Shown piece after piece: positions 1,931-55,275 of a DNA stretch of 64,000 nucleotides. The notes under the pieces are model-generated. The model was not told the origin of the DNA, ran no database searches, and saw only the letters and a program-made list of their open reading frames with translations. The first letter of the stretch is position 1; every line of letters starts with the position of its first letter. Origin of the DNA: Thermoanaerobaculia bacterium. GTDB lineage: Bacteria; Acidobacteriota; Thermoanaerobaculia; Gp7-AA8. Position numbers and translations under genes: made by a program. The stretch spans positions 1,339 to 65,338 of the forward strand of contig DATLOL010000056.1 in assembly GCA_035536275.1 (NCBI GenBank). The letters are read 5' to 3'.

Positions 1931-1991
1931 GATGGTGGACCCCCGGGACTTTTTGTGGACGGGGAAGAATACCATCGATTTTGCAAAATGT

Positions 1992-3035: not shown

Positions 3036-3085
3036 CAGGGAGCGGAAGACCTTGCGGCATCCGCCCCGTTCGTTACGGCGTCTGG

Positions 3086-3490: not shown

Positions 3491-3500
3491 CGGCGGATCG

Positions 3501-3545
3501 TATACGACCTATACGACCTATACGACGTATAGGACCTATACAATC
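3501..3545. repeat. Five tandem 9-bp units in the divergent ruvX/pilT intergenic region
   Basis: Read directly: TATACGACC, TATACGACC, TATACGACG, TATAGGACC, TATACAATC. It is an AT-rich patch in a GC-rich genome and fills most of the 65-bp gap between the two start codons (3490 and 3556). Confidence 0.9.
3539..3544 (+). promoter_or_regulatory. -10-like hexamer TACAAT inside the last repeat unit, 12 nt upstream of the pilT ATG (short-leader or leaderless transcript possible)
   Basis: TACAAT matches TATAAT at 5 of 6 positions. There is no obvious Shine-Dalgarno between it and ATG 3556. No -35 was assigned. Confidence 0.3.
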
Positions 3546-3555
3546 CTCGCGAATC

Positions 3556-29046: not shown

Positions 29047-30517
<1,471 letters not shown>

Positions 30518-42099: not shown

Positions 42100-42608
42100 A
42101 CGCCACGAACGCACGCTTTTCCACATTTTCGTCAAATCGCGACACACGATCCGGACTGGATTTGACGCGAGTTCGATCGACTACCGTCGCTTCATCGGCC
42201 TCAACGACACGCCGGCGTCGTCGTTTCGGGAGTTCATAGATGAGAAGGGATTTCGACATTCCGGCCGGGTCGACGGCTCCATGCTGCCGTCCGCAGTTTC
42301 CCTCGCCTTGCCGAATGGGATGCGCCCCGTCCCGACGCGCGTGAGCGATGGATGCCGCGGAGATTTGCTGGATTTACGACCGCAGATCTGCGCGCTCAAG
42401 TCGACCATCCCATCAGCTCCTCCAACGTCCGGGGTGAAGGGACCGCGATGCTGACCGGAGCCGTTCTTTGGCGCCGCGGACCGAAGGAAGGTCTCGTGTT
42501 CGCGTCGGGACCGCGAACGTGTAGCCCAGCACCTGTTCCCTCGGTTTGGGACCACCCAAGGTAGGGAAAATTCAATCCCCGTCACTCCTACTACTGGAGA
42601 GAAAGGCC

Positions 42609-45041
42609 ATGTTCAACCGCCTAGCGCAGTCGATGTGCATATGCTCGCTCCTGTGCCTGGCCGTCTCAGCGCAAGAGCGTTCACCAGATGGCATTTGGGA
42701 ACTTCCATCGGCCGAGACTGCATCAGCTTTGAAATTCTTGCAGTTCGACGGCACGGGAGGCGCTGAAAGCGCGCGATTGTTGCCCGATCGGCTAATGGAA
42801 GCCTTGGCCTCTGCGCCGCTGGAGAACATCGATGGCGTGAGACCGGTCATCTCTCTTCCAATCCCATCTGAGGATGGTCAGAAATTCGTTCGATTTGCCG
42901 TCGAGCGATCACCGATCACCGAAGAAGACACGCCGTCGATGACCGCCTACCGAGGTCGCGGCGTTGATGATCCGACGACGACGACTCGGTTCGACATCAC
43001 TGAAGCCGGACTCACCGGTATTGTTCTGACACCTGGCGAGACATACTTCATCGCGCCGTTCAAGCTTGAGATGAAGAGCATGCTGCCCGGTGATCTCGGA
43101 AAGGATCTCCACTTCGATTTCGCTAGCTCACGCTTCACGCTGCCTGACGGTGGTCACGACTGCCTCGTTCGACGGAATGACGTACCGAAGCCGGCTCGAA
43201 AAGCTGCCGAAGAACGAAGCGAACCGTTGTCGGCCGACAAGTTTCGGCAGAGAACGTATCGAATGGCGGTGGCCGCGACGAGCGATTACGTGAAGTTCCA
43301 TCACGACCAGCATCCGGAACTCACGGAAATAGAAGCGGCCTATCAGGCAATCCGTACAACGATCAATCTTCTCCGCGGCGTCTATGAACGCGAGTTCGGC
43401 ATCAATTTCGTCCTGGTAAACAAAGCGCGAGATCTCATCTTCGCAGACCCGAAGAAGGACCCTTACGCGGGCAAGAACGTCGACGCGATGCTGGCGCAAA
43501 ACAAGATTGAACTGGACCGGGTTCTCACTTCCTCCGGGTACGATATCGGCCACCTCTTCGCAACGCGGGGAGCCGGCAAAGCGGAGATAGGATCCGTCTG
43601 CGAAGATGCGCGCAAGGCTATGGGGCTGACCGGGGTCAGCGACGCTAGCGCGGATACCTACTTTGCGATCGACTATCTCGCGCATGAAGTCGGTCATCAG
43701 TTCGGCGCCCTGCACACATTCAACGGCACGAAAGGGTTCTGCAAGGGAGGCCGCGTGCGCGAGAGCGCGTTCGAGCCGGGCAGCGGCTGGACGATTATGG
43801 GCTATGCCGGTATCTGTGAAGACCAGGATATCGCAAAGCGCTCGCAGCATTATTTCCATGCAGCGAGTATGCAGCAGATTACCGATGCCTTTTCGACAAC
43901 TGGCGCCTGCGCCAAGATAACGACGGTCACCAATCACGCTCCCATCTTTACTCCCGTACCTGACTATGTCGTGCCAGCCGGCACTCCCGTCGCGCTGCTG
44001 GCAAAGGCCACGGATCGAGACGACAGCAAATCGACCTACGTCTGGGAAGAATATTATCCTCCTGCATTCCGCCCAAGGTGGAAGCCGGAAGATTCACCGC
44101 CCGACGATGACGCGGATGGTCGTCTGCGCCCGCTGCTCACATCGACGTCGACACAGACCCTCGAAAACTTCACTTACAACGAGGACAGAAATCGACTTCA
44201 AACCCTTCCTCGGTCCGGTCGCACCATGAATATTCGCGTGACGGCGAGGGACTCGCGTGGGCGGTATGGCTATGAGGATATTACGCTGAAAGTCGCGAAA
44301 AAGGCAGGACCTTTCGAGATTGTATCGCCCGGAGCGCGGAATGTGTGGATCTCCGGCGACTCCGTCGACATTCGCTGGCATGTTGCAGGGACAAACAAGT
44401 CACCTGTCAATTGCTCACACATACGCGTTCGCCTGTCTCTCGACGACGGCCAGACCTACCCGTACGAGATTGCCGCTGTGGCGCCGAACATCGGAGCTCT
44501 TTCGGCCAAACTGCCGCCGGGAATTCCAGCTTCGGAAACCGCACGCGTGCGGCTTGACGCGGTCGGCAATGTCTTCTTCGCAACATCGCCCAGATTCCGA
44601 ACGGGATCGGTCGCCTCCGCGGCGGTCGCGGGCACTGGCCGCAGTGAACGCGGCGTCGCGTCGGACGAAGACATCCTCACGGCATGCGACATTCGCTCAT
44701 TCGGCGCTGCCGTCGAAGCCTTTGCTGTGGATGCAAACCGATATCCGACTGCTCGGCAGGTTAGCCAAGAGTCATTCGCGAAGAAATACGGACCCGGCTT
44801 CCCGCGCAGTGATGCGTGGGGAAGACCGTTTCGCTATCTCCTCAACGGCGCACAGACGTTTGTCATTGCGTCCGCCGGCGCCGATGGCGCGTTCAGCGCA
44901 AATACAGCGCGGCAATACCTATCCTCCTCGTCACTACATGCGAGCGACGACATCGTCTTTTCAAACGGCGCGCTCATCTATTCCCCTGACCTTCCAGAAG
45001 ACGCCGCGTGTCGTTGCGCTCCGGATGTTTGCGATCAGTAA
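42609..45041 (+). CDS. Secreted reprolysin/metzincin-type zinc metalloprotease with a C-terminal GspG-like (type II secretion pseudopilin globular) domain
   Basis: Start at ATG 42609, with signal peptide 'MFNRLAQSMCICSLLCLAVSAQ'. Metzincin motif 'HEVGHQFGALH'. The C-terminus 'SDAWGRPFRYLLNGAQTFVIASAGADGAFS' resembles the GspG 'D(P/A)WG.PY.Y...S.G.DG' block. Confidence 0.7.
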   Translation: MFNRLAQSMCICSLLCLAVSAQERSPDGIWELPSAETASALKFLQFDGTGGAESARLLPDRLMEALASAPLENIDGVRPVISLPIPSEDGQKFVRFAVERSPITEEDTPSMTAYRGRGVDDPTTTTRFDITEAGLTGIVLTPGETYFIAPFKLEMKSMLPGDLGKDLHFDFASSRFTLPDGGHDCLVRRNDVPKPARKAAEERSEPLSADKFRQRTYRMAVAATSDYVKFHHDQHPELTEIEAAYQAIRTTINLLRGVYEREFGINFVLVNKARDLIFADPKKDPYAGKNVDAMLAQNKIELDRVLTSSGYDIGHLFATRGAGKAEIGSVCEDARKAMGLTGVSDASADTYFAIDYLAHEVGHQFGALHTFNGTKGFCKGGRVRESAFEPGSGWTIMGYAGICEDQDIAKRSQHYFHAASMQQITDAFSTTGACAKITTVTNHAPIFTPVPDYVVPAGTPVALLAKATDRDDSKSTYVWEEYYPPAFRPRWKPEDSPPDDDADGRLRPLLTSTSTQTLENFTYNEDRNRLQTLPRSGRTMNIRVTARDSRGRYGYEDITLKVAKKAGPFEIVSPGARNVWISGDSVDIRWHVAGTNKSPVNCSHIRVRLSLDDGQTYPYEIAAVAPNIGALSAKLPPGIPASETARVRLDAVGNVFFATSPRFRTGSVASAAVAGTGRSERGVASDEDILTACDIRSFGAAVEAFAVDANRYPTARQVSQESFAKKYGPGFPRSDAWGRPFRYLLNGAQTFVIASAGADGAFSANTARQYLSSSSLHASDDIVFSNGALIYSPDLPEDAACRCAPDVCDQ

Positions 45042-45064
45042 ACAGGCAGAGAGGAATTCACATC

Positions 45065-46567
45065 ATGAAGAGTCGTGGAATCATAATCAGCCTCATTCTC
45101 CTGCTGAACGTGACAACTGTCGCTGCACAGAAGCTTGCTCTTGTGACTCGTGTTGGGCGCGGAACTGTGGCACCGAAGAAGGATGCGTTTGCGGCGCTCA
45201 CGGCGACATATTTTACTGGCGATTCCAAGGGTCTTCGAGAGGGTCTCGTCGATCTGCTGAAGGACCCGGTATACCTCGACGCGAACGAGAAATTTATCGA
45301 CGAGATCGTCCACAAGTTCGACTTCGACAGGAATTTCTATTCGTTCATCTTCGTAGCCAAAGACCCGACTGCGAAGGATCCGCAACTGGTACGGGTGCTT
45401 ACCTATCCGAAGTCGTTCGCCGCGTATTACAGGGATGCCGGCGCAACTGAAATCGAGCTGGGGAATGCGTCTCTGCCTGGAGTACAGCAAATCTACGACG
45501 TCTTCCTCTATACCGGAAAGGCCTCCATCGGTATCACCTATACGTACACGGAAACCGAAAACCCACTGAACGCGCAGATGATCGCCGCTGCCAAGCTGGT
45601 CAACTTTGGCGAGATTGCGTCTGCAATCAGCTCACAGGATGTCGTTGCGAAGCAGCTCGAACGCGCAGCGCCTGGTGCCCGGCCCGAAGTGGATCCAGCA
45701 GACAAGGAAGTGGTCTACTTCACCATTTCCAGCGTTTCGATTCCAGCCACGCGTGCCACGGTGACGGCAAAGAGCACGGTCGACTTCGGCGACACTCCAC
45801 AAAAGAAGATTCGCACAGCCTCCATTGATGCACTTGCCGATGTCGAGCTTAGGCACCGCGTGATCTCGCCTTGCGCGCTTGCAATCGCTGAAGCCTCAAA
45901 CAAGGCAGTCCGCGACAACACGGCGGAATCCGACGATCCGCTCATTAAACGAGATGACCTGAAAGCGGCCGTGCGTAAGGCGATCAATGAGGTCCAGGGA
46001 AATACAACTTGCCAGGACGAACCGCAGAAGCCGCCTGTCGAAGCGGTCGCGCTGCGCGCGGACACCATTCGCGCGACGATTGACCGCTTTCTTGCCATCG
46101 CCGACGGCGGTGAGTCGAAACGCATGGAGAACAACACCGTCTATACGAACTCTCCACTCAATCGGTTCAGTTTGGGACTCGTCGCTGGCGGCATCTTCAA
46201 TCCATCGGGCGACGATCGGGTCAAGCTATCCGACGAGGGAAAGGTGGTTGCCGATCCGTTGAGCGGAGCGATCAGTGTCGCCGCACTCTATATCCACCCT
46301 ATGCCATACCTCAGCGGCACGGCCAGACCGTCGCAGGCGGAAAGGGTGCGCTTTATGGTCGGATATGTCGCCACTCCCGAACCAGGGCTTGCTGTCGGTG
46401 TTGCGTACCAGCTCTTTCGTGGTTTGACGATGAATGTCGGATACGCGGGTATGCTGGTCGACAGACTTGCGAAGGATGTCGAGGTAGGAACGACACCAGC
46501 GGTGGAACGTCCTTTCGAGCGAGGGGTAGCGCGTGCATTGTTTGCCGGTTTTGGATACAGCTTTTAA
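45065..46567 (+). CDS. Secreted protein with a C-terminal outer-membrane beta-barrel-like signature
   Basis: Start at ATG 45065 (RBS AGAGGA), with signal peptide 'MKSRGIIISLILLLNVTTVAAQ'. The C-terminal part has alternating hydrophobic strands and ends 'ALFAGFGYSF' (terminal Phe). Confidence 0.55.
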   Translation: MKSRGIIISLILLLNVTTVAAQKLALVTRVGRGTVAPKKDAFAALTATYFTGDSKGLREGLVDLLKDPVYLDANEKFIDEIVHKFDFDRNFYSFIFVAKDPTAKDPQLVRVLTYPKSFAAYYRDAGATEIELGNASLPGVQQIYDVFLYTGKASIGITYTYTETENPLNAQMIAAAKLVNFGEIASAISSQDVVAKQLERAAPGARPEVDPADKEVVYFTISSVSIPATRATVTAKSTVDFGDTPQKKIRTASIDALADVELRHRVISPCALAIAEASNKAVRDNTAESDDPLIKRDDLKAAVRKAINEVQGNTTCQDEPQKPPVEAVALRADTIRATIDRFLAIADGGESKRMENNTVYTNSPLNRFSLGLVAGGIFNPSGDDRVKLSDEGKVVADPLSGAISVAALYIHPMPYLSGTARPSQAERVRFMVGYVATPEPGLAVGVAYQLFRGLTMNVGYAGMLVDRLAKDVEVGTTPAVERPFERGVARALFAGFGYSF

Positions 46568-46866
46568 TCGAGAGTCACCGAGAACCTCTCGGATGCGATT
46601 TCCTTGCTGAAGGCCTTCATCTTTTGGGGGGGCTCGACGGTCACGCCTTCCTCGGCCGCGACCTTCTCTGCGTGAGCATGATCGCGTCGCGAACGGGGCG
46701 AACCTGGAGCCGTCGCCTGCAGGGCTGCGAAACCGGACGGCGCCGGTACGGCCGAAGTGCTGCATTCAGATCGTCTTAGACTGTCGCAGGCCGAGCGTCG
46801 ATCCCCACAGGCGCGGGCTGTTTTCCTTCTTGCGTAGGCAAGCGATAGCCAGCAGAATGTGAGAGA

Positions 46867-47568
46867 ATGACCGCCTTCCACATGCCCTCCGCGCGACGAC
46901 GGAGATTAGTACTTGACCGTCGAACCGTGCTGGCGGTTTGCCGAGAACTCAGCGCCGCATCCGACGACAATCGTTTGGGCAATCCATCCGACCCTCTTTC
47001 GGACCTTATCTACATCGTCATCAGCAACAAAACTGCGCCGGGGATGGCATCGCGCACCTATGCGAATCTGACGCGGCAGTTCAATCGATGGGAAGATCTG
47101 CTCGAAGCACCCATCAGTGCAGTTCGCCGCGTATTGCGACCAGCCGGTCTCGCAGGCGTCAAGGCGCGGCAGCTGCGAGGGGCGTTGCGGAAGATCAAGC
47201 GAGATCTCGGAGAGCTGTCGCTGGATGCGCTCCGAGGCTGGCCCGAAAGACGCCAGCTCGAGTACCTGACCACGCTTCCCGGTGTTTCGGGCAAGGTCGC
47301 GCGATGCGTGATGATGTACACGCTCAACGCGCACGTTCTTCCGGTGGACGCTCACGTACATCGCCTGGCGCGGCGCTTGGGATGGACGAGCCGCAAACGC
47401 GCTGACCAATGCCATGAGGAGCTCGAGGCGATCATTCCGCCGGCGAGCCGATTCGCGTTCCACGTCGGTGCGATCCTAGTCGGCCGCTCGATCTGTCGTC
47501 CACGCGACCCACGCTGTGGAGAATGTCGCCTCCGGAGCTACTGCCCGGCAGCAACGAAAAGCGCATGA
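46867..47568 (+). CDS. HhH-GPD superfamily DNA glycosylase (endonuclease III / Mig-like) with a 4Fe-4S cluster loop
   Basis: HhH 'LTTLPGVSGKVARCVMMY', catalytic Asp block 'LPVDAHVHRLARRLGW', cluster 'CRPRDPRCGECRLRSYC' (C-x6-C-x2-C-x5-C). ATGA overlap with the MTase start. Confidence 0.8.
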   Translation: MTAFHMPSARRRRLVLDRRTVLAVCRELSAASDDNRLGNPSDPLSDLIYIVISNKTAPGMASRTYANLTRQFNRWEDLLEAPISAVRRVLRPAGLAGVKARQLRGALRKIKRDLGELSLDALRGWPERRQLEYLTTLPGVSGKVARCVMMYTLNAHVLPVDAHVHRLARRLGWTSRKRADQCHEELEAIIPPASRFAFHVGAILVGRSICRPRDPRCGECRLRSYCPAATKSA

Positions 47569-48683
47569 ACGGAGCCGCTCGACCGATCGCGATCGACATC
47601 TTCAGCGGAGCGGGCGGCATGTCGTTGGGGTTCGAGCAGGCAGGCTTCGACGTGCCTGTCGCGTACGACATCAATCCGGTCAACGTCGCGACGTACGCTC
47701 GCAATTTTCCGGAGGCGGAATCGATCGAAGCGGACGTTCACAAACTGACTGGAGACGCGATCCTTGCGAAGGCTGCCGTGCGCTCCGTCGACGTGCTCTT
47801 CGGCGGCCCTCCGTGTCAGGGATTCTCCGTCATCGGGAAGCGTCGCGCCGACGACCCGCGAAACGAACTGCTGTTGGAGTTCGCGCGTCTCGTGGACGAG
47901 GTGCGTCCGCGGTACTTCGTCGTCGAGAACGTGGCCGGCCTAACGATCGGTGCCGCTCGGAAGAGCTTGCAGAAGTTTCTTGCGCGGGCGAAGAAAGCAG
48001 GCTATCGCTGCATCGATCCGGTCCAAATCCTCGACGCGAGTCATTTTGGCGTTCCGCAACAGCGACGGCGCGTATTCATTCTCGGCCATCGGGCATCCTT
48101 CCCCGCACCGGCATATCCGGTCGCGCAGGAGGGCGTGTCGCCGACCGTATGGGACGCGATCGGTGACCTCTCGCTGTTGGATCTGCACGCCGCCGACGAT
48201 CGCGGCGATTGCTACGAAGGTCCGCTCGGCGCGCCGTCGACCTACGCAAGCGTCCTGCGCGGAGAAACCGATGACCTCGACGACCTATCGTACGCGCGCG
48301 CGGCGTCGGCCACCGGTCTGCAAGGCTGCGCTCGGAGCGTCCACAGCGTGGTGACGATTCGCCGTTTCGCGAAAACGAAGCCCGGGCATCGGGAGCACGT
48401 CAGCAAGTTTCACCGCCTCGACGCCGCCGGCATTTCGTACACGATTCGCGCGGGCACGGGACCCGAGAACGGCTCGTTCATGGCGTCGCGGCCGATTCAT
48501 CCCGAATACCCGCGGTGCATCACCGTCCGCGAGGCGGCGCGCCTCCACTCCTTCCCGGATTGGTTCCAGTTCGATGCAACGAAGTGGCACGGCTTTCGGC
48601 AGATCGGAAACTCCGTCCCGCCGCTAATGGCGAGGGAGGTTGCGAAGTGCATAATGGCGGCACTTAATCGACGCAAACGCTGA
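47565..48683 (+). CDS. dcm: DNA (cytosine-5)-methyltransferase
   Basis: Motif I 'DIFSGAGGMSLG', IV 'GGPPCQGFS', VI 'VVENVAGL', VIII 'GVPQQRRRVFILG', X 'IGNSVPPLMA'. Confidence 0.9.
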   Translation: MNGAARPIAIDIFSGAGGMSLGFEQAGFDVPVAYDINPVNVATYARNFPEAESIEADVHKLTGDAILAKAAVRSVDVLFGGPPCQGFSVIGKRRADDPRNELLLEFARLVDEVRPRYFVVENVAGLTIGAARKSLQKFLARAKKAGYRCIDPVQILDASHFGVPQQRRRVFILGHRASFPAPAYPVAQEGVSPTVWDAIGDLSLLDLHAADDRGDCYEGPLGAPSTYASVLRGETDDLDDLSYARAASATGLQGCARSVHSVVTIRRFAKTKPGHREHVSKFHRLDAAGISYTIRAGTGPENGSFMASRPIHPEYPRCITVREAARLHSFPDWFQFDATKWHGFRQIGNSVPPLMAREVAKCIMAALNRRKR

Positions 48684-50059
48684 TGGCAACTACCAAGAAA
48701 GCGACGGCGGCCACCGCTCCGAACGCATCGGACCTCGTCGATGCGGAGCCCACGAAGGATCTCTTCATCGAAATGCTCGTCAAGGACATCACATTGATCC
48801 CCGCGATCAAGGACCTCGTGGACAATTCCGTGGACGGCGCGCGAGCCTTGCGAGCGGGATCGACGGCCAAGAATCGGTACGATGGCCTCGAGATCCGAAT
48901 CGACGCCGACAAGAAGCATTTCAAGATCTCGGATAACTGTGGCGGCATCCCGATCGACGTCGCTCGGAACTACGCGTTTCGCTTCGGCAGGCCGAAGGGA
49001 ATGCCTCGAACGCCGCACTCCGTCGGTCAGTTCGGCGTCGGAATGAAGCGTGCGCTCTTCAAGCTCGGGACGAAGTTCTCGATCGACTCGACGGCCGAGC
49101 GATCGTGGTTCAAGCTGGATGTGGACGTGGATGCGTGGCGACAGCGGCCGGAATGGCAGTTCGTTCTTACCGATCATCGCGACAACGAACCGCAGAACAC
49201 CGCGAAGCGCGGAACCACGATCGTGGTGCCTGATCTTCACGACTCAGTGGCCGAGCAGTTTTCGCTCGAGAACTTCAAGACAGAACTCGTGAAGGAACTC
49301 GAAGAAGCTCATCAAGAGAGTCTGGATAGCGGCCTGACGATTACGCTGAGTGGCATCCCACTCCGCACGCGCCCCCTCACGTTGTTGCAAGCGGACGAAC
49401 TGAAGCCCGTGGCGTATTCGCGGACGATTCATGTAAAGGACAAAGGCGACGTCAACGTTCGGATTTACGTCGGCGTCGGAAAATCCGATCCCGTCGCCGG
49501 CGGCTGGTACGTGTTCTGTAACGGTCGCCTGATCGTCGGTGCCGATCAATCCGCAGTGACGGGCTGGGGCGACACCGCAGAAAAAGGGATTCCGCGGTAC
49601 CACGGTCAATTCTCTCGGTTCCGCGGCTTCATTTTCTTCGACGCCGCCGACCCGCTCCTTTTGCCCTGGAATACGATGAAGACCGGCATCGATACGGACT
49701 CCCCACGGTTCCGCGCGGTCCGGCTCGACATGACGCGACTCATGCGTCCCGTCATCGACTTCCTCAACAAGTTGGACGGCGAGAAGGCGAAGTATCCCGA
49801 CGACGACGGCCCTCTCCAGACGGTCGTGCGGTCTGGCAAGGACGTTCGCCTTTCGGAGCTGCCAGACAACGACAAGTTCCTATGGCCGAAGCCGACGCCC
49901 GCGCCGAAATCGAGCGGCGACGCGACGGTTATCAAATACTCGCGACCGACCAACAAGATCAAGGCCGTGAAGGCGGCGATCGGCGCGCGGAGCAATAAGG
50001 AAGTCGGCGAAAAGACGTTCGATTACTACTTCCAAGCAGAGTGTGATGGCGATGGGTAG
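48683..50059 (+). CDS. GHKL-superfamily (MORC/MutL-like, HATPase_c_3-style) ATPase
   Basis: N-box 'KDLVDNSVDGA', G1 'ISDNCGGI', G2 'SVGQFGVGMKRALF'. Its ATG shares its A with the dcm TGA. Confidence 0.7.
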   Translation: MATTKKATAATAPNASDLVDAEPTKDLFIEMLVKDITLIPAIKDLVDNSVDGARALRAGSTAKNRYDGLEIRIDADKKHFKISDNCGGIPIDVARNYAFRFGRPKGMPRTPHSVGQFGVGMKRALFKLGTKFSIDSTAERSWFKLDVDVDAWRQRPEWQFVLTDHRDNEPQNTAKRGTTIVVPDLHDSVAEQFSLENFKTELVKELEEAHQESLDSGLTITLSGIPLRTRPLTLLQADELKPVAYSRTIHVKDKGDVNVRIYVGVGKSDPVAGGWYVFCNGRLIVGADQSAVTGWGDTAEKGIPRYHGQFSRFRGFIFFDAADPLLLPWNTMKTGIDTDSPRFRAVRLDMTRLMRPVIDFLNKLDGEKAKYPDDDGPLQTVVRSGKDVRLSELPDNDKFLWPKPTPAPKSSGDATVIKYSRPTNKIKAVKAAIGARSNKEVGEKTFDYYFQAECDGDG

Positions 50060-51014
50060 TTACGAACGGATCAACTACGCGCTCCGGCCGGCGAAAAGCA
50101 TCGAACGGAAGATGATGGTCGAAGCGCTGCGGAAGCTCGCGCCGTTCGGTGCGGTCTCCGCGTACCGATACATCGGTTTCGGATCGACGTACTTCAGCGA
50201 CTTCGTGCTCGTACACAAGGCGCTCGGTATCTCGAACATGATCAGCATCGAGCAGGATGTCGAGAATCAAGACCGCTTCGCGTTCAATCGTCCGTATCGC
50301 TGCATCGCGATCGAATTCGGGTCGTCCAACGAAGTTCTTCCGACGCTCCCGTGGAACGTCCGGACGATCGGATGGCTGGATTACGATGGTCCTTTAGACG
50401 CTAGCGTGCTCGCCGACGCGCGGTTCTTCGTTGCGACCGCCCGCGCCGGCAGCGTCTTCATCGTCAGCGTAAACGCGGAGCCGGACCGCAAAGCCGGCGG
50501 CGCCGATGCGGAGATTGCGAAGTATCGCCTCGACAAGTTGAAGGAACGAGTCGGCGATCCAAAAGTGCCTGACGACGTGCTCGGCAAGCAGCTCGCGAAA
50601 TGGGGTACGGCCGCCGTGTACCGGCGCATTCTCTCGAATGAGATCGAAACGACGCTCGTCGAGCGAAACGGCGCGCTTGAATCGGGAAGCAAGTTGCGAT
50701 TCAAGCCCCTCTTTCATTTCCGCTACGCGGACAATGCAAAGATGCTCACCGTCGGAGGCTTGTTGTTCGATGAAGGGCAGGAAGTTCTCGTGAACTCTTG
50801 CAACTTCGAAAAGCTGGACTTTATCCGGACCAACGGCGAGCCCTACCTCATCGAGGCGCCGAATCTCACGTACCGCGAGATCCGTCATTTGGATCGGCAG
50901 CTTCCGTGTAGCGCGGTGGCCGACCTCGACGCGCCCGGTGTCCCATCGGACGACATCCGCAAGTACTCGGATGTCTACCGATACTTTCCCACGTTCGCGG
51001 AGACGGAGATCTGA
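50046..51014 (+). CDS. 322-aa unknown protein with a Rossmann/class-I-methyltransferase-like strand pattern
   Basis: It overlaps the GHKL gene end by 14 nt. 'YRYIGFGSTYFSDF', 'NMISIEQD', 'IGWLDYDG', 'SVFIVSVNA'. No family recognised. Confidence 0.5.
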   Translation: MAMGSYERINYALRPAKSIERKMMVEALRKLAPFGAVSAYRYIGFGSTYFSDFVLVHKALGISNMISIEQDVENQDRFAFNRPYRCIAIEFGSSNEVLPTLPWNVRTIGWLDYDGPLDASVLADARFFVATARAGSVFIVSVNAEPDRKAGGADAEIAKYRLDKLKERVGDPKVPDDVLGKQLAKWGTAAVYRRILSNEIETTLVERNGALESGSKLRFKPLFHFRYADNAKMLTVGGLLFDEGQEVLVNSCNFEKLDFIRTNGEPYLIEAPNLTYREIRHLDRQLPCSAVADLDAPGVPSDDIRKYSDVYRYFPTFAETEI

Positions 51015-51017
51015 CGT

Positions 51018-52424
51018 GTGCTTGGGCGGCTGACCGACTACCTCGTCGCGGCCCACGTGCTCGTCGTTATCTTTTTGGTCGTCGCCAACTTTCAGGCGAT
51101 ACGCGCGCTCAGCCGCCGCTCGTTCTCCTATTCGGCGCTCGGATGGTTCGCACATTTCGTGTATCTGTGCGTCGGCCTCACGTCCTACGGAACCGTTGCC
51201 GGCGTTCGCATGTTCGAGCGCCAATGGTGGATCGCTCTCATCAGTCTTAGCGGCGTCGTTGCTTCTTACTTCTTCTGCATGGCGCTCCTTCGCGAGCGTG
51301 ACGGACGGCCGCGGTGGGCCTGGCCGACCGCAATCTTCATACTCGGCGCCGTAGCGGTGAGTTGGCTGGCCGTGCAACTACCGCCGCGGTATGATGCGCT
51401 GCTCGACGGACTGATCGTCTCGCTCGGCTTCGTAGTGCTGGCCGTCTATTACCGCCGCGTGCTCGTCGAAGCGCTACCGACCACCCGCCGCCTGCCGTGG
51501 ATTCCAGTAGCAGGGGCGCTCTGCTACGCGACGTTGCAGCCGTTGTCCCTGTTGGGTGGCGCGAACACCACCTTGGTTCCACAGTCGATATACGTGCTCG
51601 CGATCGCGAGCAAGCTTCTGATGGCGTTCGGGCTGCAAGCGGCGTTCATCGCGCGCGCCGCAGCGGGGGCTCGTCTCTATGGCGCCGCAGCAACCATCGG
51701 GCGGCTAACGCACGAGTTAGGGACTCCGATCGCTCAGATCGGCCTCCAGGTCGAGCGCATCACGCGGATGCTTGACTCGGACAAGACCGAACGGCTGCAG
51801 GATGATTTGTACGCGCTCGATAACGCCGTGCTTCGCGTGAAGGCGACCCTCGCGGCGACGCAGCAGCTGCTGCCGACGCCGGACGACATCATCGACCTGC
51901 ATCGCCTTCTGATGCCGGCCGATGGCGCGGCGCAGCCGCGACGCGAAGCCGTCATCAACGTCAATACGGTCGTGCAACTCGCAATGATGGCGGTCAAGGA
52001 GACGCGGGCAGAGCGCGTTCACTTGACTGTCGCGTACGCGCACAACTGCTGCGTCCGGGCCGATGCGTTCGAACTCACGCAGGTATTCGTGAATCTATTG
52101 CGAAACGCGTACGAGGCATTTCCGAATGGGATCGGAAGCGTCGCGATTCGCACTCAGGGCGATGGCAGCCAAGAAAAGGGCCGGGTCGTCATCTCGGTCA
52201 CCGACGACGGCGAGGGCATCCGGCGCGATCTACTGCCCGTTGTCTTTCGGGACGGCGTGAGCGCGAGGGGCGGTCCCGGTCGCGGATACGGTCTGGCGGT
52301 CGTGCGTTCGATCGTTCAGCGCTACGGCGGCTCCATCACGTTAGAACCCAACGAGGCGCCCGGCGCTACCGGGACGATCGCGACCGTCGTTCTGCCGCGC
52401 GTACGGTGCGGATCGTATGCGTAG
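51018..52424 (+). CDS. Sensor histidine kinase with a multi-TM (about 6-7 helices) membrane-embedded input domain
   Basis: GTG start 3 nt after the previous stop. H-box 'RLTHELGTPIAQI', N-box 'NLLRNAYEA', G1 'DDGEGI', G2 'GRGYGLAVV'. There is no obvious periplasmic domain. Confidence 0.8.
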   Translation: MLGRLTDYLVAAHVLVVIFLVVANFQAIRALSRRSFSYSALGWFAHFVYLCVGLTSYGTVAGVRMFERQWWIALISLSGVVASYFFCMALLRERDGRPRWAWPTAIFILGAVAVSWLAVQLPPRYDALLDGLIVSLGFVVLAVYYRRVLVEALPTTRRLPWIPVAGALCYATLQPLSLLGGANTTLVPQSIYVLAIASKLLMAFGLQAAFIARAAAGARLYGAAATIGRLTHELGTPIAQIGLQVERITRMLDSDKTERLQDDLYALDNAVLRVKATLAATQQLLPTPDDIIDLHRLLMPADGAAQPRREAVINVNTVVQLAMMAVKETRAERVHLTVAYAHNCCVRADAFELTQVFVNLLRNAYEAFPNGIGSVAIRTQGDGSQEKGRVVISVTDDGEGIRRDLLPVVFRDGVSARGGPGRGYGLAVVRSIVQRYGGSITLEPNEAPGATGTIATVVLPRVRCGSYA

Positions 52425-52453
52425 CGCGGACCCGTGCGAGACTGCGTAGGAGG

Positions 52454-53443
52454 ATGATGGTGCCGACCCCGAAGAGCATTGCCACCAAGCCGCGGGTTCT
52501 GTGGCTCGACGACGACGCCGTATACCTCGATGCCATCCGCCAGGCTATCGAGGATCGCGTTGACGTTACGACGGCGACCTCCGCAGACGAAGCGATTGCA
52601 CTGCTCGCGCGCGGCGACTCGTACGACGCCGTCGTCACCGATCTCGTGCTTTCGCCGAACGAGGCGGGCGGCTTGGAGTTCATCAAGTTCGCCAAATCGA
52701 CATCACCCACGACTCCCTTGATCGCCGTATCTGCATTTTCGGCGCGCTACACGCGCGAACTGAACGATCTCGGCGTCGACGCTCTGTTGGACAAATCCGA
52801 TCTGAACCGGGAGGCGCTTATAGATCTCATCGCCTCGATCGTCCGGCAACCCGCGCGAGAGCACGGCTCGATGGAGTTCGTGCGAGAGATTGAAGTTCGG
52901 CGAATCGTCGAAGAAGAGATCAAGAGGCTCGTGCCGGAAAAAGAGCGTACGCTCGATCTTCTCGAGCACGGCCGCTTCGAACTGATAAAGCCGCTCGTGG
53001 GCTACAAGCACGACATCGAACGGCAACTTCTCCGCTTTCCGTACGACAGGAATGTGTTTCTCATGATGAAGTTCCGGTCGACGAACGTCGAATTGGGAGA
53101 GTTCATCATCGAATCGCTGGCGCGTGCGGGGCTGTGCGGCGTCCGGGCGGATCAAGATGCGTGGAACATCACGCGGAACGTGTACAACCCGATCGCGGTG
53201 CTGTATTGCTGCAAGTTTGGTATCGCACTGTTCGATGAGGCCGAGACCGGGCAAGCGTATAGCCCGAATGTCGCGTACGAACTCGGGATGATGCACTATC
53301 AAGGTAAAGAGTGCCTGATTCTGCGCCATGCGTCGCTGCCAGCAGTGCCCTTCGATTTGATCAAAGATCTGTATCAGGAATACTCGAAAGACCTGCAAGT
53401 ACGCGCGCGCGTGGAGGCGTGGTTGCGGCAAATCGCTCCTTGA
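52454..53443 (+). CDS. Response regulator: REC domain fused to a TIR / nucleoside-2-deoxyribosyltransferase-like (flavodoxin-fold) output domain
   Basis: ATG 52454 follows AGGAGG. REC: 'VLWLDDD', 'AVVTDLVL', 'LIAVSAF', 'ALLDKS'. C-terminal domain: 'NVFLMMKF', 'IAVLYCCKFGIALFD', 'SPNVAYELGMMHYQGKECLILRH' (conserved Glu-x-Gly...GK pattern). Confidence 0.6.
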   Translation: MMVPTPKSIATKPRVLWLDDDAVYLDAIRQAIEDRVDVTTATSADEAIALLARGDSYDAVVTDLVLSPNEAGGLEFIKFAKSTSPTTPLIAVSAFSARYTRELNDLGVDALLDKSDLNREALIDLIASIVRQPAREHGSMEFVREIEVRRIVEEEIKRLVPEKERTLDLLEHGRFELIKPLVGYKHDIERQLLRFPYDRNVFLMMKFRSTNVELGEFIIESLARAGLCGVRADQDAWNITRNVYNPIAVLYCCKFGIALFDEAETGQAYSPNVAYELGMMHYQGKECLILRHASLPAVPFDLIKDLYQEYSKDLQVRARVEAWLRQIAP

Positions 53444-53639: not shown

Positions 53640-53713
53640 CGGGGCGTGGCGCAGTCTGGTAGCGCGCTTGGATGGGGTCCAAGAGGTCGCAGGTTCGAAT
53701 CCTGTCGCCCCGA
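53640..53713 (+). tRNA. tRNA-Pro (anticodon GGG), CCA not encoded
   Basis: Manual cloverleaf: acceptor CGGGGCG/CGCCCCG, D-stem GCGC/GCGC, anticodon stem CTTGG/CCAAG with loop ATGGGGT, T-arm GCAGG-TTCGAAT-CCTGT, discriminator A. Confidence 0.85.
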
Positions 53714-54225
53714 TGACACGCGGAGCCTGCTGATCAGAGATCGGCGGCCTTCGCGTAGCGAGCACTTCGTGTTGACGGCGCTGTATCGACGCTCCGTTCT
53801 GCGATTTACGAACTGCACCGATCCGTGCTACGAAGTGCGTGCCCAGCTCTCCTTGACTTCGCCGCATCCAGCGCGCCAGCTGCACACGCACAGGCGCGCT
53901 CTCCGCGACCGCGAATCCAGCGTTTGGGGCTTGCAGACGCCAATAGCGCAGAACCCCCGCCTAGCGCGCCTGCCTGGGGGGACTCCACGCTTAGGAACAC
54001 GATTCACGCGTGTCGTCAACACGCCGTTCTGCGCACGAGCAAGGGGTTTCTCGCGTCCGGTGCGTCGCACGTGGCTGAAATCGAGAGCGTGCCTGCTACA
54101 CGGAGACACCCGCGCTCCTGTCGCAGCCCGCTGTGGGCGCACCCGCAGCGGAGTCGCGCAGTGGAAACGGCGCATGGATGCAGAGAACTCGTCAAGGAGG
54201 GGGCGGTCCCTAACCCCTTCCTCCC

Positions 54226-55275
54226 ATGTTCCCCTCTTCTTCTCCACTCCCACCTGCGCAGTTCGGGATTCCAGTCCCACCTGCGTCTTCTAGCCCGCCG
54301 CCGCCTCTGTTCGGCACGACGGCACTACCGTCCTCGGGCGATGCGCGGCCGGAGAACGAGGAACTGCTGCGCCAAGTGGTCGCTCGGTTCGAGTGCTTCG
54401 CCGACTACGCACTCCACGTGCTGAACCAGAGCCGCATGACGGTGCGGTGGTACCGCGACGCCATGCGCAACTACGTGGCGTTCCTCCGGCTCGGGCTCGG
54501 CCTGCCACCCGACGACTTCCACCGGCGAATCTACGACATCGATGGGTGGGTCCGATGGAACCTCCACGACCGGAAGCTTTCGGCCGTCTCGATGCACGGC
54601 TACTGGCGCGCCGTGAAGCGGTTCTGGAAGGACGTTGCCGCGCGCGACGGCGTCCAGAACCCGTTCGTAGGCAAGCGGCCACCCGCAAGACCGCAGCGCG
54701 TCCCCAAGGCGCACACACCCGACGAGTGCCGCCGCATTCTCGCCGCGGGCGAGAACTACCCGTGGGAGACGCCCTTCCACCGCGCCCGCGCGCTCGCGAT
54801 CCTCGGCACCGCGCTTCTCGCAGGACTCCGGAAGAGCGAGCTGCTCGCACTCGAAGTGCGCGACGTGGACGTGAACGCCGGCACGATCCGGGTCCGCCAC
54901 GGCAAGGGCAGCGGCGGGGGCAAGGAGCGCGTTGCGTACATGCCGGACGAGCTCCGCAGGCTTCTCACCGCGTACAACTCCGCGCGGGCAGCCGCGCACC
55001 TCGTCTGCCCCGACTACTTCGCATCCCTCAAGTACCGGCGTGGCATCAAGCGGGACACGCTCAAGCGGCTCGTGACGTACGTCCGTGCAGCCTCCGGCGT
55101 GAAGTTCACGATGCATACCCTCCGGCACAGCTACGTCTCGTGGCTCGTCCGGTCGGGGGTCCCGCTCCCGGTTGCGAGCGAGCTCGCCGGCCACACGATG
55201 ATTGAGACCACGATGAACTACATCCGCGTCTTCGACACAGATAAGCGTGCGGCGGTTGGCCGACTGCGGATGTGA
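54226..55275 (+). CDS. Tyrosine recombinase/integrase (XerC/D-like)
   Basis: 'LAGLRKSELLALEVRDVD' (Arg), 'HTLRHSYVSWLVRSG', 'LAGHTMIETTMNYIRV' (His...Tyr). The N-terminal Pro/Ser-rich 40 aa make the exact start uncertain. Confidence 0.8.
   Translation: MFPSSSPLPPAQFGIPVPPASSSPPPPLFGTTALPSSGDARPENEELLRQVVARFECFADYALHVLNQSRMTVRWYRDAMRNYVAFLRLGLGLPPDDFHRRIYDIDGWVRWNLHDRKLSAVSMHGYWRAVKRFWKDVAARDGVQNPFVGKRPPARPQRVPKAHTPDECRRILAAGENYPWETPFHRARALAILGTALLAGLRKSELLALEVRDVDVNAGTIRVRHGKGSGGGKERVAYMPDELRRLLTAYNSARAAAHLVCPDYFASLKYRRGIKRDTLKRLVTYVRAASGVKFTMHTLRHSYVSWLVRSGVPLPVASELAGHTMIETTMNYIRVFDTDKRAAVGRLRM

What the first reader, a model, noticed from the sequence alone, without database searches (positions are those of the whole stretch)
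46867..53443. Low-GC six-gene cassette (Mig-like glycosylase, m5C MTase, GHKL/MORC-like ATPase, unknown Rossmann-like protein, multi-TM histidine kinase, REC-TIR/NDT-like effector): candidate undescribed defence system
Seen in sequence:
- The six genes are on one strand and almost seamlessly packed. There is an ATGA overlap at 47565-47568 and a shared A of TGA/ATG at 48683. Genes three and four overlap by 14 nt at 50046-50059. A 3-nt gap precedes GTG 51018, and a 29-nt gap containing AGGAGG precedes ATG 52454.
- The cassette sits in the AT-richer half of a tRNA-flanked island, directly before tRNA-Pro.
- Motifs are clear for the C5-MTase (all of I, IV, VI, VIII, X), the HhH-GPD/FeS glycosylase, the GHKL N/G1/G2 boxes, the HK H/N/G boxes and a canonical REC.

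Inference:
- The MTase could mark self DNA.
- The GHKL ATPase and the unknown partner could form a restriction or sensing module. MORC-like GHKL ATPases are known components of R-M-like loci.
- The HK/RR pair would gate a potentially toxic TIR/NDT-like effector. This is conceptually like Detocs (kinase phosphorylating a REC-PNP effector).
- Unlike Detocs, the sensor here is membrane-embedded, there is no separate buffer receiver, the effector fold is different, and the pair is welded to a methylation module.

I do not recognise this gene combination as any named system.
Basis: partly seen in the sequence, partly recalled or inferred. Interest (0 to 1): 0.85.

Follow-up and report, generated by a model that had tools for sequence, protein, structure and literature searches.

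The report
Two unrelated gene modules, fused locally
The six tightly packed genes are real, but they are two independent mobile modules joined only in this narrow lineage: a widespread, uncharacterised module of a DNA cytosine methylase, a MORC-like ATPase and a methyltransferase-fold protein, and a sensor kinase that controls a nucleotide-cleaving-type enzyme.

Summary
All six + strand genes, their overlaps and their motifs are confirmed. Protein 4 is not unknown: it is Pfam PF20553 (Methyltransf_35, E 8e-109), a class I methyltransferase fold.

Comparative data split the cassette.
- **Core pair.** A MORC-like GHKL ATPase plus PF20553. In 80 genomes of bacteria and archaea the ATPase sits directly upstream of PF20553 in 79.
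- **Its neighbours.** 51 of 80 loci have a Dcm methylase alongside, 15 of them also with the HhH-GPD glycosylase. 20 of 80 have DndC-type phosphorothioation genes instead.
- **A phage copy.** A Pseudomonas filamentous phage carries the ATPase–PF20553–Dcm trio.
- **The kinase and response regulator.** They occur in 0 of those 80 loci. Conversely, 0 of 80 loci holding the regulator's output domain have genes 1–4.
- **All six together.** This occurs only in close relatives, as a discrete block with unrelated flanks.

The regulator's output domain models confidently.

No PADLOC model hits genes 3–6, and no nuclease is recognisable.

Verdict: this is a lineage-specific juxtaposition of a paraMORC-type, nuclease-less R-M-like module and a Detocs-like two-component module. 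It is not one six-gene system. Both modules are untested experimentally, and the first deserves testing.

The parts
46822..53443 (+). Discrete six-gene block, a composite of module A and module B
   Evidence: blastn of L001 against the window gives 75% identity over 46822-51012 and 76% over 52877-53435. The flanks are unrelated. G+C is 0.613 against 0.653 for the whole window.
46867..47568 (+). Gene 1: HhH-GPD DNA glycosylase with an FeS-cluster loop. It is EndoIII/Mig-like and the presumed Vsr analogue for T:G repair next to Dcm.
   Evidence: Pfam HhH-GPD E 4e-11; NCBIfam DR2438-type glycosylase E 6e-33, below its cut-off; PADLOC 'Type II nicking endonuclease' E 3e-12. Motifs LPGVSGK, LPVDAH and CX6CX2CX5C are present. 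A homolog accompanies Dcm in 15 of 80 related loci.
47565..48683 (+). Gene 2: C5-cytosine DNA methyltransferase (Dcm)
   Evidence: PF00145 E 7e-65 over the full profile; PADLOC MTase_II E 2e-136. Motifs I, IV, VI, VIII and X are present. It is adjacent to the GHKL+PF20553 pair in 51 of 80 loci.
48683..50059 (+). Gene 3: MORC-like GHKL ATPase with a MORC-like match in its middle region
   Evidence: HATPase_c_3 E 5e-12. The family profile's best PDB match is MORC4, E 0.004; a second, non-significant stretch places GWYVFCNGRLI against the MORC4 middle region. It matches phrog_20521, E 8e-71. None of 25 homologs hits any further Pfam domain. It lies directly upstream of PF20553 in 79 of 80 loci.
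50046..51014 (+). Gene 4: PF20553 (Methyltransf_35), a class I SAM-methyltransferase-fold protein and the obligate partner of gene 3
   Evidence: Pfam E 8e-109. The AlphaFold model has pLDDT 89. Foldseek's best PDB match is Trm1, E 3e-6, followed by many small-molecule O-, N- and C-methyltransferases. GFGS, E69 and WLDYD are invariant. It matches phrog_19983, E 4e-40.
51018..52424 (+). Gene 5: histidine kinase with about six membrane helices in its first 215 residues and only short loops between them
   Evidence: HATPase_c E 2e-19. H, N, G1 and G2 boxes are present. It is 46% identical to its counterpart in L001, against 73-82% for genes 1-4.
52454..52825 (+). Gene 6, N-terminal part: receiver (REC) domain. 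The start codon is more likely 52457 or 52460.
   Evidence: Response_reg E 7e-10, residues 15-124. The DD, D (VVTDLVL), S and K positions are present. The position of the Shine-Dalgarno sequence is shown.
53036..53443 (+). Gene 6, C-terminal part: DNPH1/NDT-like (TIR-related) domain, a predicted N-glycosidase effector
   Evidence: The model has pLDDT 89. Foldseek matches DNPH1, NDT and BcmB at E 3e-4 to 1e-3, with target TM-scores of 0.54-0.68, then TIR domains. Viral NDTs match as well. A weak PF05014 match, E 0.044, covers the YELG region. The domain is 60-87% identical across phyla and is fused to REC, to TIR_2 or to other domains.

Best explanation
The block is a lineage-specific, head-to-tail juxtaposition of two independent mobile modules that are probably co-transcribed.

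**Module A (genes 1-4): a nuclease-less, R-M-like module.**
- Shown:
  - Dcm is a full-length C5-cytosine methylase.
  - The MORC-like GHKL ATPase and the PF20553 methyltransferase-fold protein form an obligate pair.
  - The pair rides next to a DNA-modification module, either Dcm (base methylation) or Dnd/Ssp-type (backbone phosphorothioation).
- Inferred:
  - Dcm marks host DNA.
  - The HhH-GPD/FeS glycosylase plays the Vsr role and repairs T:G mismatches that arise when 5-methylcytosine deaminates.
  - The pair is the arm that acts on unmodified incoming DNA.
    - PF20553 engages specific sites unless they carry the host mark.
    - The ATPase dimer then clamps or compacts the DNA, or recruits a host nuclease.
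    - Replication is blocked without a dedicated endonuclease.

**Module B (genes 5-6): a two-component switch.**
- Shown: a membrane-embedded kinase is paired with a receiver domain fused to a DNPH1/NDT-fold domain.
- Inferred:
  - A membrane or envelope signal triggers phosphotransfer.
  - Phosphorylation activates an N-glycosidase.
  - The enzyme cleaves a nucleotide (dNMP, NMP, NAD+ or ATP class).
  - The logic is that of Detocs, or alternatively of regulated nucleotide metabolism.
For: **Module A**
- A GHKL homolog lies directly upstream of PF20553 in 79 of 80 genome loci from many bacterial and archaeal phyla. The 80th locus has no upstream sequence.
- Dcm is adjacent in 51 of 80 loci and a DndC homolog lies within 10 kb in 20 of 80. 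These two sets do not overlap. Six of the remaining nine loci are truncated contigs.
- Pfam on neighbours in loci lacking Dcm found DndE 12, PAPS_reduct 9, DndB 5 and class-V aminotransferase 6.
- An HhH-GPD homolog is present in 15 of 80 loci.
- Genes 1-4 overlap or abut one another.
- The trio sits in the accessory slot of Pseudomonas filamentous phage PfAC20, where sister phages carry defence genes.
- PHROG families exist for both proteins.
- The pair stands alone next to integrases, Mrr and BglII in L003.

**Independence of the two modules**
- No kinase or regulator hits occur in the 80 PF20553 loci.
- No hits to genes 1-4 occur in the 80 loci with the NDT-like domain.
- The kinase and REC-NDT pair stands alone in L005, L006/L007 and L009.

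**Module B**
- The fold is shown.
- A multi-pass membrane kinase partner recurs in five loci.
- The domain is fused to TIR_2 in P0219.
- L104 has a layout of kinase, receiver protein and REC-NDT.
Against: - No nuclease or any other effector is recognisable in module A, so 'restriction' is inference only.
- The partner modification switches between Dcm and Dnd several times on the PF20553 tree. A simple mark-reading model does not easily explain this.
- The substrate of PF20553 is unknown. Pfam calls it an O-methyltransferase, while the best structural match is a tRNA N2-guanine methylase.
- For module B, neighbours of the NDT-like family are heterogeneous. They include NUDIX, deoxynucleoside kinase and ribonucleotide reductase rather than a clear defence-island signature.
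- No viral contig encodes the NDT-like domain.
- The NDT-like domain is unusually conserved for an immune effector.
- Against full independence of the modules:
  - A 3-nt gap separates gene 4 from gene 5.
  - The whole block recurs with other flanks in L001.
  - A 90%-identical relative keeps the first 48 nt of the kinase gene.
Confidence: 0.6

Rival explanations
1. All six genes form one integrated defence system. Methylation marks self, the GHKL+PF20553 pair senses foreign DNA, and the kinase and regulator gate a toxic NDT-like effector as a second layer.
For: - Gaps of 3 nt and 29 nt separate genes 4, 5 and 6, and the terminator-like pattern matches in the region are no more numerous than in shuffled sequence.
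- The same six genes in the same order occur in L001 and in a second contig, with different flanks.
- L173 retains the first 48 nt of the kinase gene directly after gene 4.
Against: - None of 80 PF20553 loci has the kinase and regulator, and none of 80 NDT-domain loci has genes 1-4.
- The link is confined to relatives with at least about 75% nucleotide identity.
- At 57-63% protein identity each module is already alone (L009, L010, L171, L172).
- Defence genes often cluster without any functional coupling.
Confidence: 0.12
2. The GHKL+PF20553 pair is not an anti-foreign-DNA arm. It is an accessory of DNA modification. It could be a MutL-like helper of damage repair (deaminated 5-methylcytosine, phosphorothioate-linked nicks), or a regulator or second modifier that works with Dcm or Dnd.
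For: - No nuclease is detectable.
- The GHKL protein is of the MutL/MORC class.
- In E. coli, MutL stimulates Vsr-dependent very-short-patch repair (established knowledge).
- An HhH-GPD repair glycosylase co-occurs in 15 of 80 loci.
- The pair tolerates switches between two chemically different modifications.
- PF20553 keeps intact SAM-binding motifs, so it may itself be a modifier.
Against: - The pair also stands without any adjacent modification gene, next to Mrr, BglII and integrases.
- It is carried as a moron by a filamentous phage.
- Its patchy distribution across phyla, with repeated horizontal moves, is typical of defence cargo.
- 65 of 80 loci lack the glycosylase.
Confidence: 0.2
3. 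The kinase and REC-NDT pair is a physiological two-component system. It could control nucleotide-pool sanitation or salvage through a DNPH1-like dNMP hydrolase, in response to a membrane signal. It would not be an immune module and would sit next to module A by chance.
For: - Neighbours of family members include NUDIX (3), deoxynucleoside kinase and ribonucleotide reductase.
- L005 lies among housekeeping genes.
- The domain is 60-87% identical across phyla, which suggests a conserved small-molecule substrate.
- There is no PADLOC hit and no viral copy.
Against: - The distribution is sporadic and often flanked by transposases (L006, L099).
- The domain is fused to a TIR_2 domain.
- A distant homolog is the sole cargo of small enterobacterial plasmids.
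- The kinase and receiver evolve fast while the effector is frozen.
- NDT-like effectors are known in retron defence (papers listed).
Confidence: 0.4

Closest known systems
MORC/paraMORC GHKL ATPases in predicted R-M operons (Iyer, Abhiman & Aravind 2008, PMC2292703)
   Same: - An ATPase with a GHKL domain and a MORC-like middle region, with intact motifs.
- It is linked to cytosine methylases and to a repair enzyme for deaminated 5-methylcytosine.
- It is patchy and horizontally mobile.
- Our family's best PDB profile match is MORC4.
   Different: - Those operons were defined by superfamily II helicases and restriction-fold, HNH or TIR nucleases. None is present here.
- The partner here is a PF20553 methyltransferase-fold protein, which the text we read does not describe.
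- The repair enzyme is an HhH-GPD glycosylase, not Vsr.
- A link to Dnd phosphorothioation is not reported there.
HATPase_c_3-HEF_HK plus Response_reg_2 gene pairs associated with Dcm (Bellieny-Rabelo et al. 2021, PMC8011034)
   Same: - A two-gene pair consisting of a HATPase_c_3 protein and a small partner.
- It is strongly linked to type II C5-methylases.
- It has been proposed to be related to paraMORC.
   Different: - Gene 3 has no HEF_HK match and gene 4 has no Response_reg_2 match, even at permissive thresholds.
- The partner here has a methyltransferase fold.
Detocs (DtcA/DtcB/DtcC; preprint 10.1101/2023.01.24.525353)
   Same: - A histidine kinase passes phosphate to a receiver domain fused to an enzyme that, by its fold, cleaves N-glycosidic bonds of nucleotides.
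- The effector is modular.
   Different: - There is no DtcB buffer receiver.
- The kinase has multiple membrane helices rather than a TPR-type sensor.
- The effector has a DNPH1/NDT fold, not PNP.
- No PADLOC model hits either protein.
- NDT is not among the alternative Detocs effectors listed there, which are REase, TOPRIM and transmembrane.
DNPH1/Rcl, nucleoside 2'-deoxyribosyltransferases, BcmB CMP N-glycosidase and the NDT-like effector of retron Ec86/Eco1
   Same: - The same Rossmann-like fold.
- An invariant YELG glutamate. I recall that the catalytic glutamate of DNPH1 and NDT sits in a similar motif; this was not checked against a DNPH1 or NDT sequence or structure here.
- NDT-like proteins already serve as immune effectors in retrons (papers listed).
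   Different: - There is no significant sequence match to any solved structure.
- The Pfam match is below threshold.
- It is a distinct, very conserved subfamily with its own motifs (NVFLMMKFR, CCKxGIALFDE).
- It is fused to a receiver domain. The substrate is unknown.
Dcm-Vsr and M.MthTI-Mig.MthI pairs (established knowledge, not re-read here)
   Same: A C5-methylase is translationally coupled to an enzyme that repairs T:G mismatches caused by 5-methylcytosine deamination. Mig is likewise an HhH-GPD/FeS glycosylase.
   Different: - T:G specificity of gene 1 has not been tested.
- Gene 1 has a lysine in LPGVSGK. From memory of the EndoIII motif, not checked by alignment here, this may correspond to the lyase lysine of bifunctional EndoIII, which Mig lacks.
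Phosphorothioate-based defence (Dnd with DndFGH, Ssp with SspE, PbeABCD) and BREX, as modification-based systems
   Same: - The GHKL+PF20553 pair lies beside DndC/D/E-type genes in 20 of 80 loci.
- Like BREX, module A has a methylase and an ATPase but no obvious nuclease (BREX comparison from general knowledge).
   Different: - There is no homology to DndFGH, SspE, Pbe or BREX components (no PADLOC or NCBIfam hits).
- In this window the partner is Dcm, not Dnd.

Membership tests
Pfam PF20553 (Methyltransf_35) | Full-length match above the curated gathering score | tested here: met
   Gene 4 scores 364 bits against a cut-off of 27, E 8e-109, covering profile positions 2-308 of 309.
Classical type II R-M system | DNA methyltransferase with complete catalytic motifs | tested here: met
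   PF00145 E 7e-65; PADLOC MTase_II E 2e-136.
Classical type II R-M system | A cognate restriction endonuclease gene next to the methylase | tested here: not met
   Genes 3 and 4 have no nuclease family hit in Pfam, PADLOC or NCBIfam. The gene 4 model is a methyltransferase fold along its whole length. The last ~110 residues of gene 3 were not modelled.
MORC/paraMORC R-M-like operons (Iyer 2008) | GHKL ATPase with N, G1 and G2 boxes and a MORC-like S5 domain | tested here: met
   HATPase_c_3 is hit in 25 of 25 homologs. MORC4 is the best PDB profile match; a second, non-significant stretch places GWYVFCNGRLI against the MORC4 middle region. The acidic residue before the N box is Asp, not Glu, and is nearly invariant. 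The S5 part rests on that weak match only.
MORC/paraMORC R-M-like operons (Iyer 2008) | Conserved linkage to a DNA methylase | tested here: met
   Dcm is adjacent in 51 of 80 loci.
MORC/paraMORC R-M-like operons (Iyer 2008) | An associated superfamily II helicase and/or a restriction-fold, HNH or TIR nuclease | tested here: not met
   None is present in the window cassette. None is a consistent neighbour in the related loci.
HEF_HK / Response_reg_2 pair (PF19191/PF19192) | Matches to both Pfam models | tested here: not met
   No such hit for gene 3, even at E up to 10. None for gene 4 at E up to 0.01. None in 25 homologs of gene 3.
Mza system (MzaB) | NCBIfam MzaB equivalog score | tested here: not met
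   19.9 bits against a cut-off of 850. No Z1 or AIPR genes are present.
Detocs | DtcA-type kinase with a TPR sensor, matching the Detocs profiles | tested here: not met
   Gene 5 has about six membrane helices and no TPR. It has no PADLOC hit.
Detocs | DtcB, a stand-alone buffer receiver gene | tested here: not met
   There is no third gene: the gaps are 3 nt and 29 nt. A relative, L104, does have an extra receiver gene.
Detocs | DtcC: a receiver fused to PNP or to one of the listed alternative effectors | tested here: not met
   The receiver is present, but the effector has a DNPH1/NDT fold. It has no PADLOC hit.
Nucleoside 2-deoxyribosyltransferase / DNPH1 superfamily | The fold | tested here: met
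   Foldseek probability is 1.00, E 3e-4 to 1e-3, with target TM-scores of 0.54-0.68 for DNPH1, NDT and BcmB. Viral NDTs match too.
Nucleoside 2-deoxyribosyltransferase / DNPH1 superfamily | Sequence-family membership (PF05014) and a catalytic glutamate | tested here: inconclusive
   PF05014 scores 14.3 bits against a cut-off of 28.8, E 0.044, over the region holding the invariant YELG. No PDB sequence matches.
Nucleoside 2-deoxyribosyltransferase / DNPH1 superfamily | N-glycosidase or transferase activity | not testable with these tools
   Needs an enzyme assay.
Mig/EndoIII-type HhH-GPD glycosylases | HhH-GPD domain with a catalytic Asp and a 4Fe-4S loop | tested here: met
   PF00730 scores 43.7 bits against a cut-off of 26.2. 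The VDAH Asp and the C-X6-C-X2-C-X5-C loop are present in the sequence. The Pfam FeS model itself is below its cut-off, E 0.0096.
Mig/EndoIII-type HhH-GPD glycosylases | T:G mismatch specificity | not testable with these tools
   Inferred only from the ATGA coupling to Dcm and from co-occurrence in 15 of 80 loci.

The most novel reading that the evidence does not exclude
The GHKL+PF20553 pair is a nuclease-free immune module of the MORC type. A methyltransferase-fold reader engages unmodified sites, and a MORC-like ATPase then entraps or compacts the foreign DNA. Either cytosine methylation or backbone phosphorothioation at the site gives protection. That would be a prokaryotic counterpart, and a possible ancestor, of the eukaryotic coupling between MORC proteins and DNA methylation in silencing. 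It would also be a single restriction-like arm shared by two chemically unrelated modification systems.
Probability: 0.2. Interest if true: 0.85.

Novelty: new variant of a known kind. Interest (0 to 1): 0.55.

Why it matters
- **Module A is widespread but unrecognised.**
  - The scan found 154 encoding stretches among GTDB species representatives, and the protein search found over 1,000 database proteins. They span bacteria, archaea and a filamentous phage.
  - It is still invisible to PADLOC. A published phage survey scored the same trio as an 'incomplete' R-M system consisting of a lone methylase.
- **It may use a new way of stopping foreign DNA.**
  - It is tied to two different DNA modification chemistries and has no recognisable nuclease.
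  - If it defends, the mechanism is likely new.
  - It bears on how MORC ATPases came to work with DNA methylation.
- **Module B would extend known defence logic.** If it is immune, it adds a DNPH1/NDT-type effector and a membrane-embedded sensor to the Detocs principle of defence by two-component signalling.
- **There is a lesson for genome scans.** Seamless packing within one genome is not evidence of one system. Here a comparison across 160 loci split the cassette.

Tried and rejected
- **Named systems**
  - PADLOC, NCBIfam and PHROGs were run on all six proteins.
  - PADLOC matched only the Dcm and the glycosylase.
  - Genes 3 and 4 matched only PHROGs of unknown function.
- **Literature**
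  - Searches for Methyltransf_35 and for PF20553 returned nothing.
  - So did 'phosphorothioation' with GHKL.
  - HATPase_c_3 with phage and methyltransferase returned only one unrelated paper.
- **Island boundaries**
  - The 3' end of tRNA-Pro has no second copy in the window.
  - Direct repeats over 41-64 kb look like chance matches.
  - An integrase-defined island that contains the cassette is therefore not supported.
- **Regulatory signals**
  - The promoter and terminator scans found no more sites than in shuffled sequence.
  - Rfam found only the tRNA.
- **Sequence matches to solved structures**
  - PF20553 and the NDT-like domain have none.
  - The single GHKL sequence gives nothing useful. 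Only the family profile reached MORC4.
- **Viral contigs.** None encodes the NDT-like domain. The phage GenBank collection has none either.
- **Kinase adjacency by BLAST.** This was too insensitive because the kinases diverge fast. Pfam on selected neighbours replaced it.
- **L173 as a clean case of genes 1-4 without the kinase.** Rejected: homology continues 48 nt into the kinase gene and then meets a serine recombinase. This is an insertion or replacement, and the contig ends too soon to tell which.
- **My own ORF calling.** A greedy longest-ORF caller on high-GC DNA is noisy, so neighbour counts from the container searches are lower bounds.

Full report
**1. Observation**

The window holds six + strand ORFs:

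| Gene | Coordinates |
|---|---|
| 1 | 46867-47568 |
| 2 | 47565-48683 |
| 3 | 48683-50059 |
| 4 | 50046-51014 |
| 5 | 51018-52424 |
| 6 | 52454-53443 |

- The ATGA overlap, the TGATG overlap, the 14-nt overlap, the 3-nt gap and the 29-nt gap were all read directly.
- AGGAGG (52448-52453) touches ATG 52454. ATG 52457 or GTG 52460 is therefore the likelier start, and the identical database protein P0121 has 328 residues.
- tRNA-Pro lies at 53640-53713 and tRNA-Gly at 29047-29122. Rfam finds nothing else in 45-56 kb.
- G+C is 0.613 in the cassette and 0.602 over 42-54 kb, against 0.66-0.68 on both sides.
The only unproven part is 'tRNA-flanked island'.
  - The window holds no repeat of the tRNA 3' end.
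  - The one integrase (54226-55275) lies beyond the tRNA.

**2. What the proteins are**

- **Gene 1** is an HhH-GPD glycosylase with the EndoIII-type cysteine loop. PADLOC's closest model is a 'type II nicking endonuclease'.
- **Gene 2** is a complete C5-cytosine methylase.
- **Gene 3** is a HATPase_c_3 GHKL ATPase.
  - A profile of 25 homologs finds MORC4 as the best solved relative (E 0.004). A second, non-significant stretch places GWYVFCNGRLI against the MORC4 middle region.
  - No homolog carries any other Pfam domain.
  - Its AlphaFold model has pLDDT 89 and pTM 0.87.
  - The model is a class I SAM-methyltransferase along its whole length. The tRNA methylase Trm1 is the best match, followed by many small-molecule methyltransferases.
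  - GFGS, E69 and WLDYD are invariant.
- **Gene 5** is a histidine kinase with about six membrane helices and short loops.
- **Gene 6** is a canonical receiver domain plus a C-terminal domain of about 135 residues.
  - The model of the C-terminal 200 residues has pLDDT 89.
  - It matches DNPH1/Rcl, nucleoside 2'-deoxyribosyltransferases and the CMP N-glycosidase BcmB first, then TIR domains.
  - The viral structure library gives NDTs again.
  - At sequence level there is only a sub-threshold PF05014 match over the YELG region.

**3. Is it one system?**

*Loci that encode PF20553*
- An alignment of PF20553 proteins (A1) scanned over one genome per GTDB species returned 80 loci from many bacterial and archaeal phyla.
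- tBLASTn with the six window proteins gave these results:

| Neighbour of PF20553 | Loci (of 80) |
|---|---|
| GHKL homolog directly upstream | 79 (the 80th has no upstream DNA) |
| Dcm homolog alongside | 51 |
| HhH-GPD homolog | 15 |
| Kinase or response regulator homolog | 0 |

- 20 further loci, none of which has Dcm, hold a DndC homolog. It usually comes with DndD and DndE.
- Pfam on neighbours in loci lacking Dcm confirmed DndE, DndC, DndB and a DndA-type desulfurase.
- In total 71 of 80 loci place the pair beside a DNA-modification module. Six of the other nine are truncated contigs.

*Loci that encode the NDT-like domain*
- 80 metagenome loci encoding the domain contain no homolog of genes 1-4.
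- The kinase and REC-NDT pair stands alone in L005, L006/L007 and L009.

*Where all six genes occur together*
- All six occur together only in close relatives: L001 and a second contig.
- DNA homology between L001 and the window runs 46822-51012 and again 52877-53435, with unrelated flanks.
- Within that block the protein identities are uneven:

| Part | Identity to L001 |
|---|---|
| Genes 1-4 | 73-82% |
| NDT-like domain | 87% |
| Receiver domain | 54% |
| Kinase | 46% |

- A 90.6%-identical contig (L173) carries Dcm, GHKL and PF20553. It loses homology 48 nt into the kinase gene, where a large serine recombinase follows.
- At 57-63% protein identity the modules are already apart (L009, L010, L171, L172).

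*Conclusion.* The block is a discrete unit that moves, or has been rearranged, as one piece. It is a recent composite of two modules and not a conserved six-gene system.

**4. Module A**

- The obligate GHKL+PF20553 pair is attached to Dcm or to phosphorothioation genes. This is the strongest and most general result.
- It also occurs elsewhere.
  - It stands alone between integrases, Mrr and BglII.
  - It lies beside dnd and Septu-like genes.
  - It forms a trio with Dcm in the accessory region of Pseudomonas filamentous phage PfAC20, at 30-38% identity.
  - A survey of those phages, using PADLOC, recorded that region as an incomplete R-M system with only a methylase. Sister phages carry toxin-antitoxin, Avs or IetAS genes in the same slot.
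  - Both proteins fall into PHROG families of unknown function.
- On a neighbour-joining tree of PF20553 the partner type is clustered: 12 changes, against a mean of 26 and a minimum of 20 in 1000 label permutations. Even so, it switches between Dcm and Dnd several times.
- I infer an R-M-like module.
  - Dcm marks self DNA.
  - The glycosylase repairs the T:G mismatches that methylation causes.
  - The pair acts on unmodified DNA.
- Because no nuclease is recognisable, the action may be ATP-driven entrapment or compaction of DNA, as for MORC proteins, or recruitment of a host nuclease. PF20553 may serve as a site reader that a base mark or a backbone mark blocks. These steps are inference.
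- A repair or modification-accessory role is the main rival.

**5. Module B**

- The NDT-like domain defines a family of about 1,000 representatives at 50% clustering: 1017 at E up to 1e-3 and 64 at E up to 1e-30.
- It is strikingly conserved, with motifs NVFLMMKFR, CCKxGIALFDE, YELGMMH and PFDLIKDL.
- It is fused to several partners:
  - a receiver domain;
  - TIR_2 (P0219);
  - unknown N-terminal domains;
  - C-terminal extensions.
- Receiver-fused members pair with multi-pass membrane kinases in five loci.
- In L104 the layout is a soluble kinase, an extra receiver protein and REC-NDT. That is the Detocs three-gene layout, although no Detocs model hits.
- Detocs itself uses a TPR-type kinase, a buffer receiver and a receiver-PNP ATP nucleosidase.
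- NDT-like effectors are known from retron defence (papers listed).
- Evidence against a defence role:
  - Neighbours are heterogeneous and include nucleotide-metabolism genes.
  - No virus carries the domain.
- Small enterobacterial plasmids carry a distant homolog as their only cargo.
- I rate an immune, Detocs-like role and a physiological role as about equally likely.

**6. Comparison with known systems and novelty**

- Module A belongs to the kind predicted in 2008, in which MORC/paraMORC ATPases sit in R-M operons with Dcm and Vsr. It parallels the HATPase_c_3 and partner pairs linked to Dcm that were reported in 2021.
- It fails their specific membership tests.
  - There is no helicase or nuclease.
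  - There is no HEF_HK or Response_reg_2 match.
  - The methyltransferase-fold partner and the Dnd link were not found in the papers I could search.
- Module B works like Detocs but is not a member.
- The overall classification is a new variant of known kinds.
- The six-gene 'system' as proposed is not supported. The GHKL+PF20553 module is the part worth experimental attention.

Noticed in passing
window 34609-37251 (+): An 880-aa ORF has an NB-ARC (STAND NTPase) match, E 4e-5. It could be an Avs-like or regulatory STAND protein in the same low-GC neighbourhood.
   Followed up: no
window 53640-55275: A tyrosine integrase (54226-55275) lies on the 3' side of tRNA-Pro. No repeat of the tRNA 3' end exists in the window, so any integrase-linked element extends to the right, away from the cassette.
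   Followed up: partly
L173:3384-4995: In a relative with 90.6% nucleotide identity, homology to the window stops 48 nt into the kinase gene. A large serine recombinase on the opposite strand follows. A mobile element inserted into, or replaced, the kinase and regulator.
   Followed up: partly
L177 (Pseudomonas phage PfAC20, PP058144) 280-3711: A filamentous prophage carries GHKL, a PF20553-like protein and Dcm as ORF1-3 in its accessory region. The publication on this phage listed it as an incomplete R-M system with only a methylase.
   Followed up: yes
L011/L002, L018-L024, L026, L031-L035, L041, L042, L060, L066, L069, L083, L086, L087: In loci without Dcm, the GHKL+PF20553 pair lies beside DndC/D/E-type or Ssp-like phosphorothioation genes. 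An SMC-like ATPase often lies upstream as well; the two loci checked, L002/L011 and L090, also have a 'dnd_assoc_4' protein.
   Followed up: partly
L104:1529-5331: A soluble 612-aa kinase, a 273-aa receiver protein and REC-NDT lie in a row. This is the Detocs three-gene layout with a different effector. There is no PADLOC Detocs hit.
   Followed up: partly
L174 (NZ_OW967268) 1648-2586; L175 (CP052530) 1067-1972: ColE1-type plasmids of 3.6-7 kb in Citrobacter, Klebsiella and Salmonella carry a ~300-aa 'hypothetical protein' with a distant NDT-like C-terminus (32% identity). Apart from an HTH gene it is their only cargo.
   Followed up: partly
P0219; L172:315-1166: The NDT-like domain is fused to a TIR_2 domain in one protein. 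In another contig a TIR_2 gene sits two genes upstream of a REC-NDT gene.
   Followed up: no
L065:11675-13608: A second, very divergent GHKL+PF20553-like pair (about 26% identity) lies just downstream of the first pair in a Planctomycetia contig.
   Followed up: no
window 51018-52850 compared with L001: The kinase (46% identity) and the receiver (54%) have diverged far more than genes 1-4 (73-82%) or the NDT-like domain (87%) within the same block. The sensor and receiver are either evolving fast or were exchanged by recombination.
   Followed up: partly
window 42546-46567 (+): Directly upstream lie a reprolysin-like metallopeptidase (831 aa, with a T2SS-G-like C-terminal stretch) and a 500-aa protein with no family match. 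They lie in the same low-GC stretch and are unrelated to the cassette's flanks in L001.
   Followed up: no
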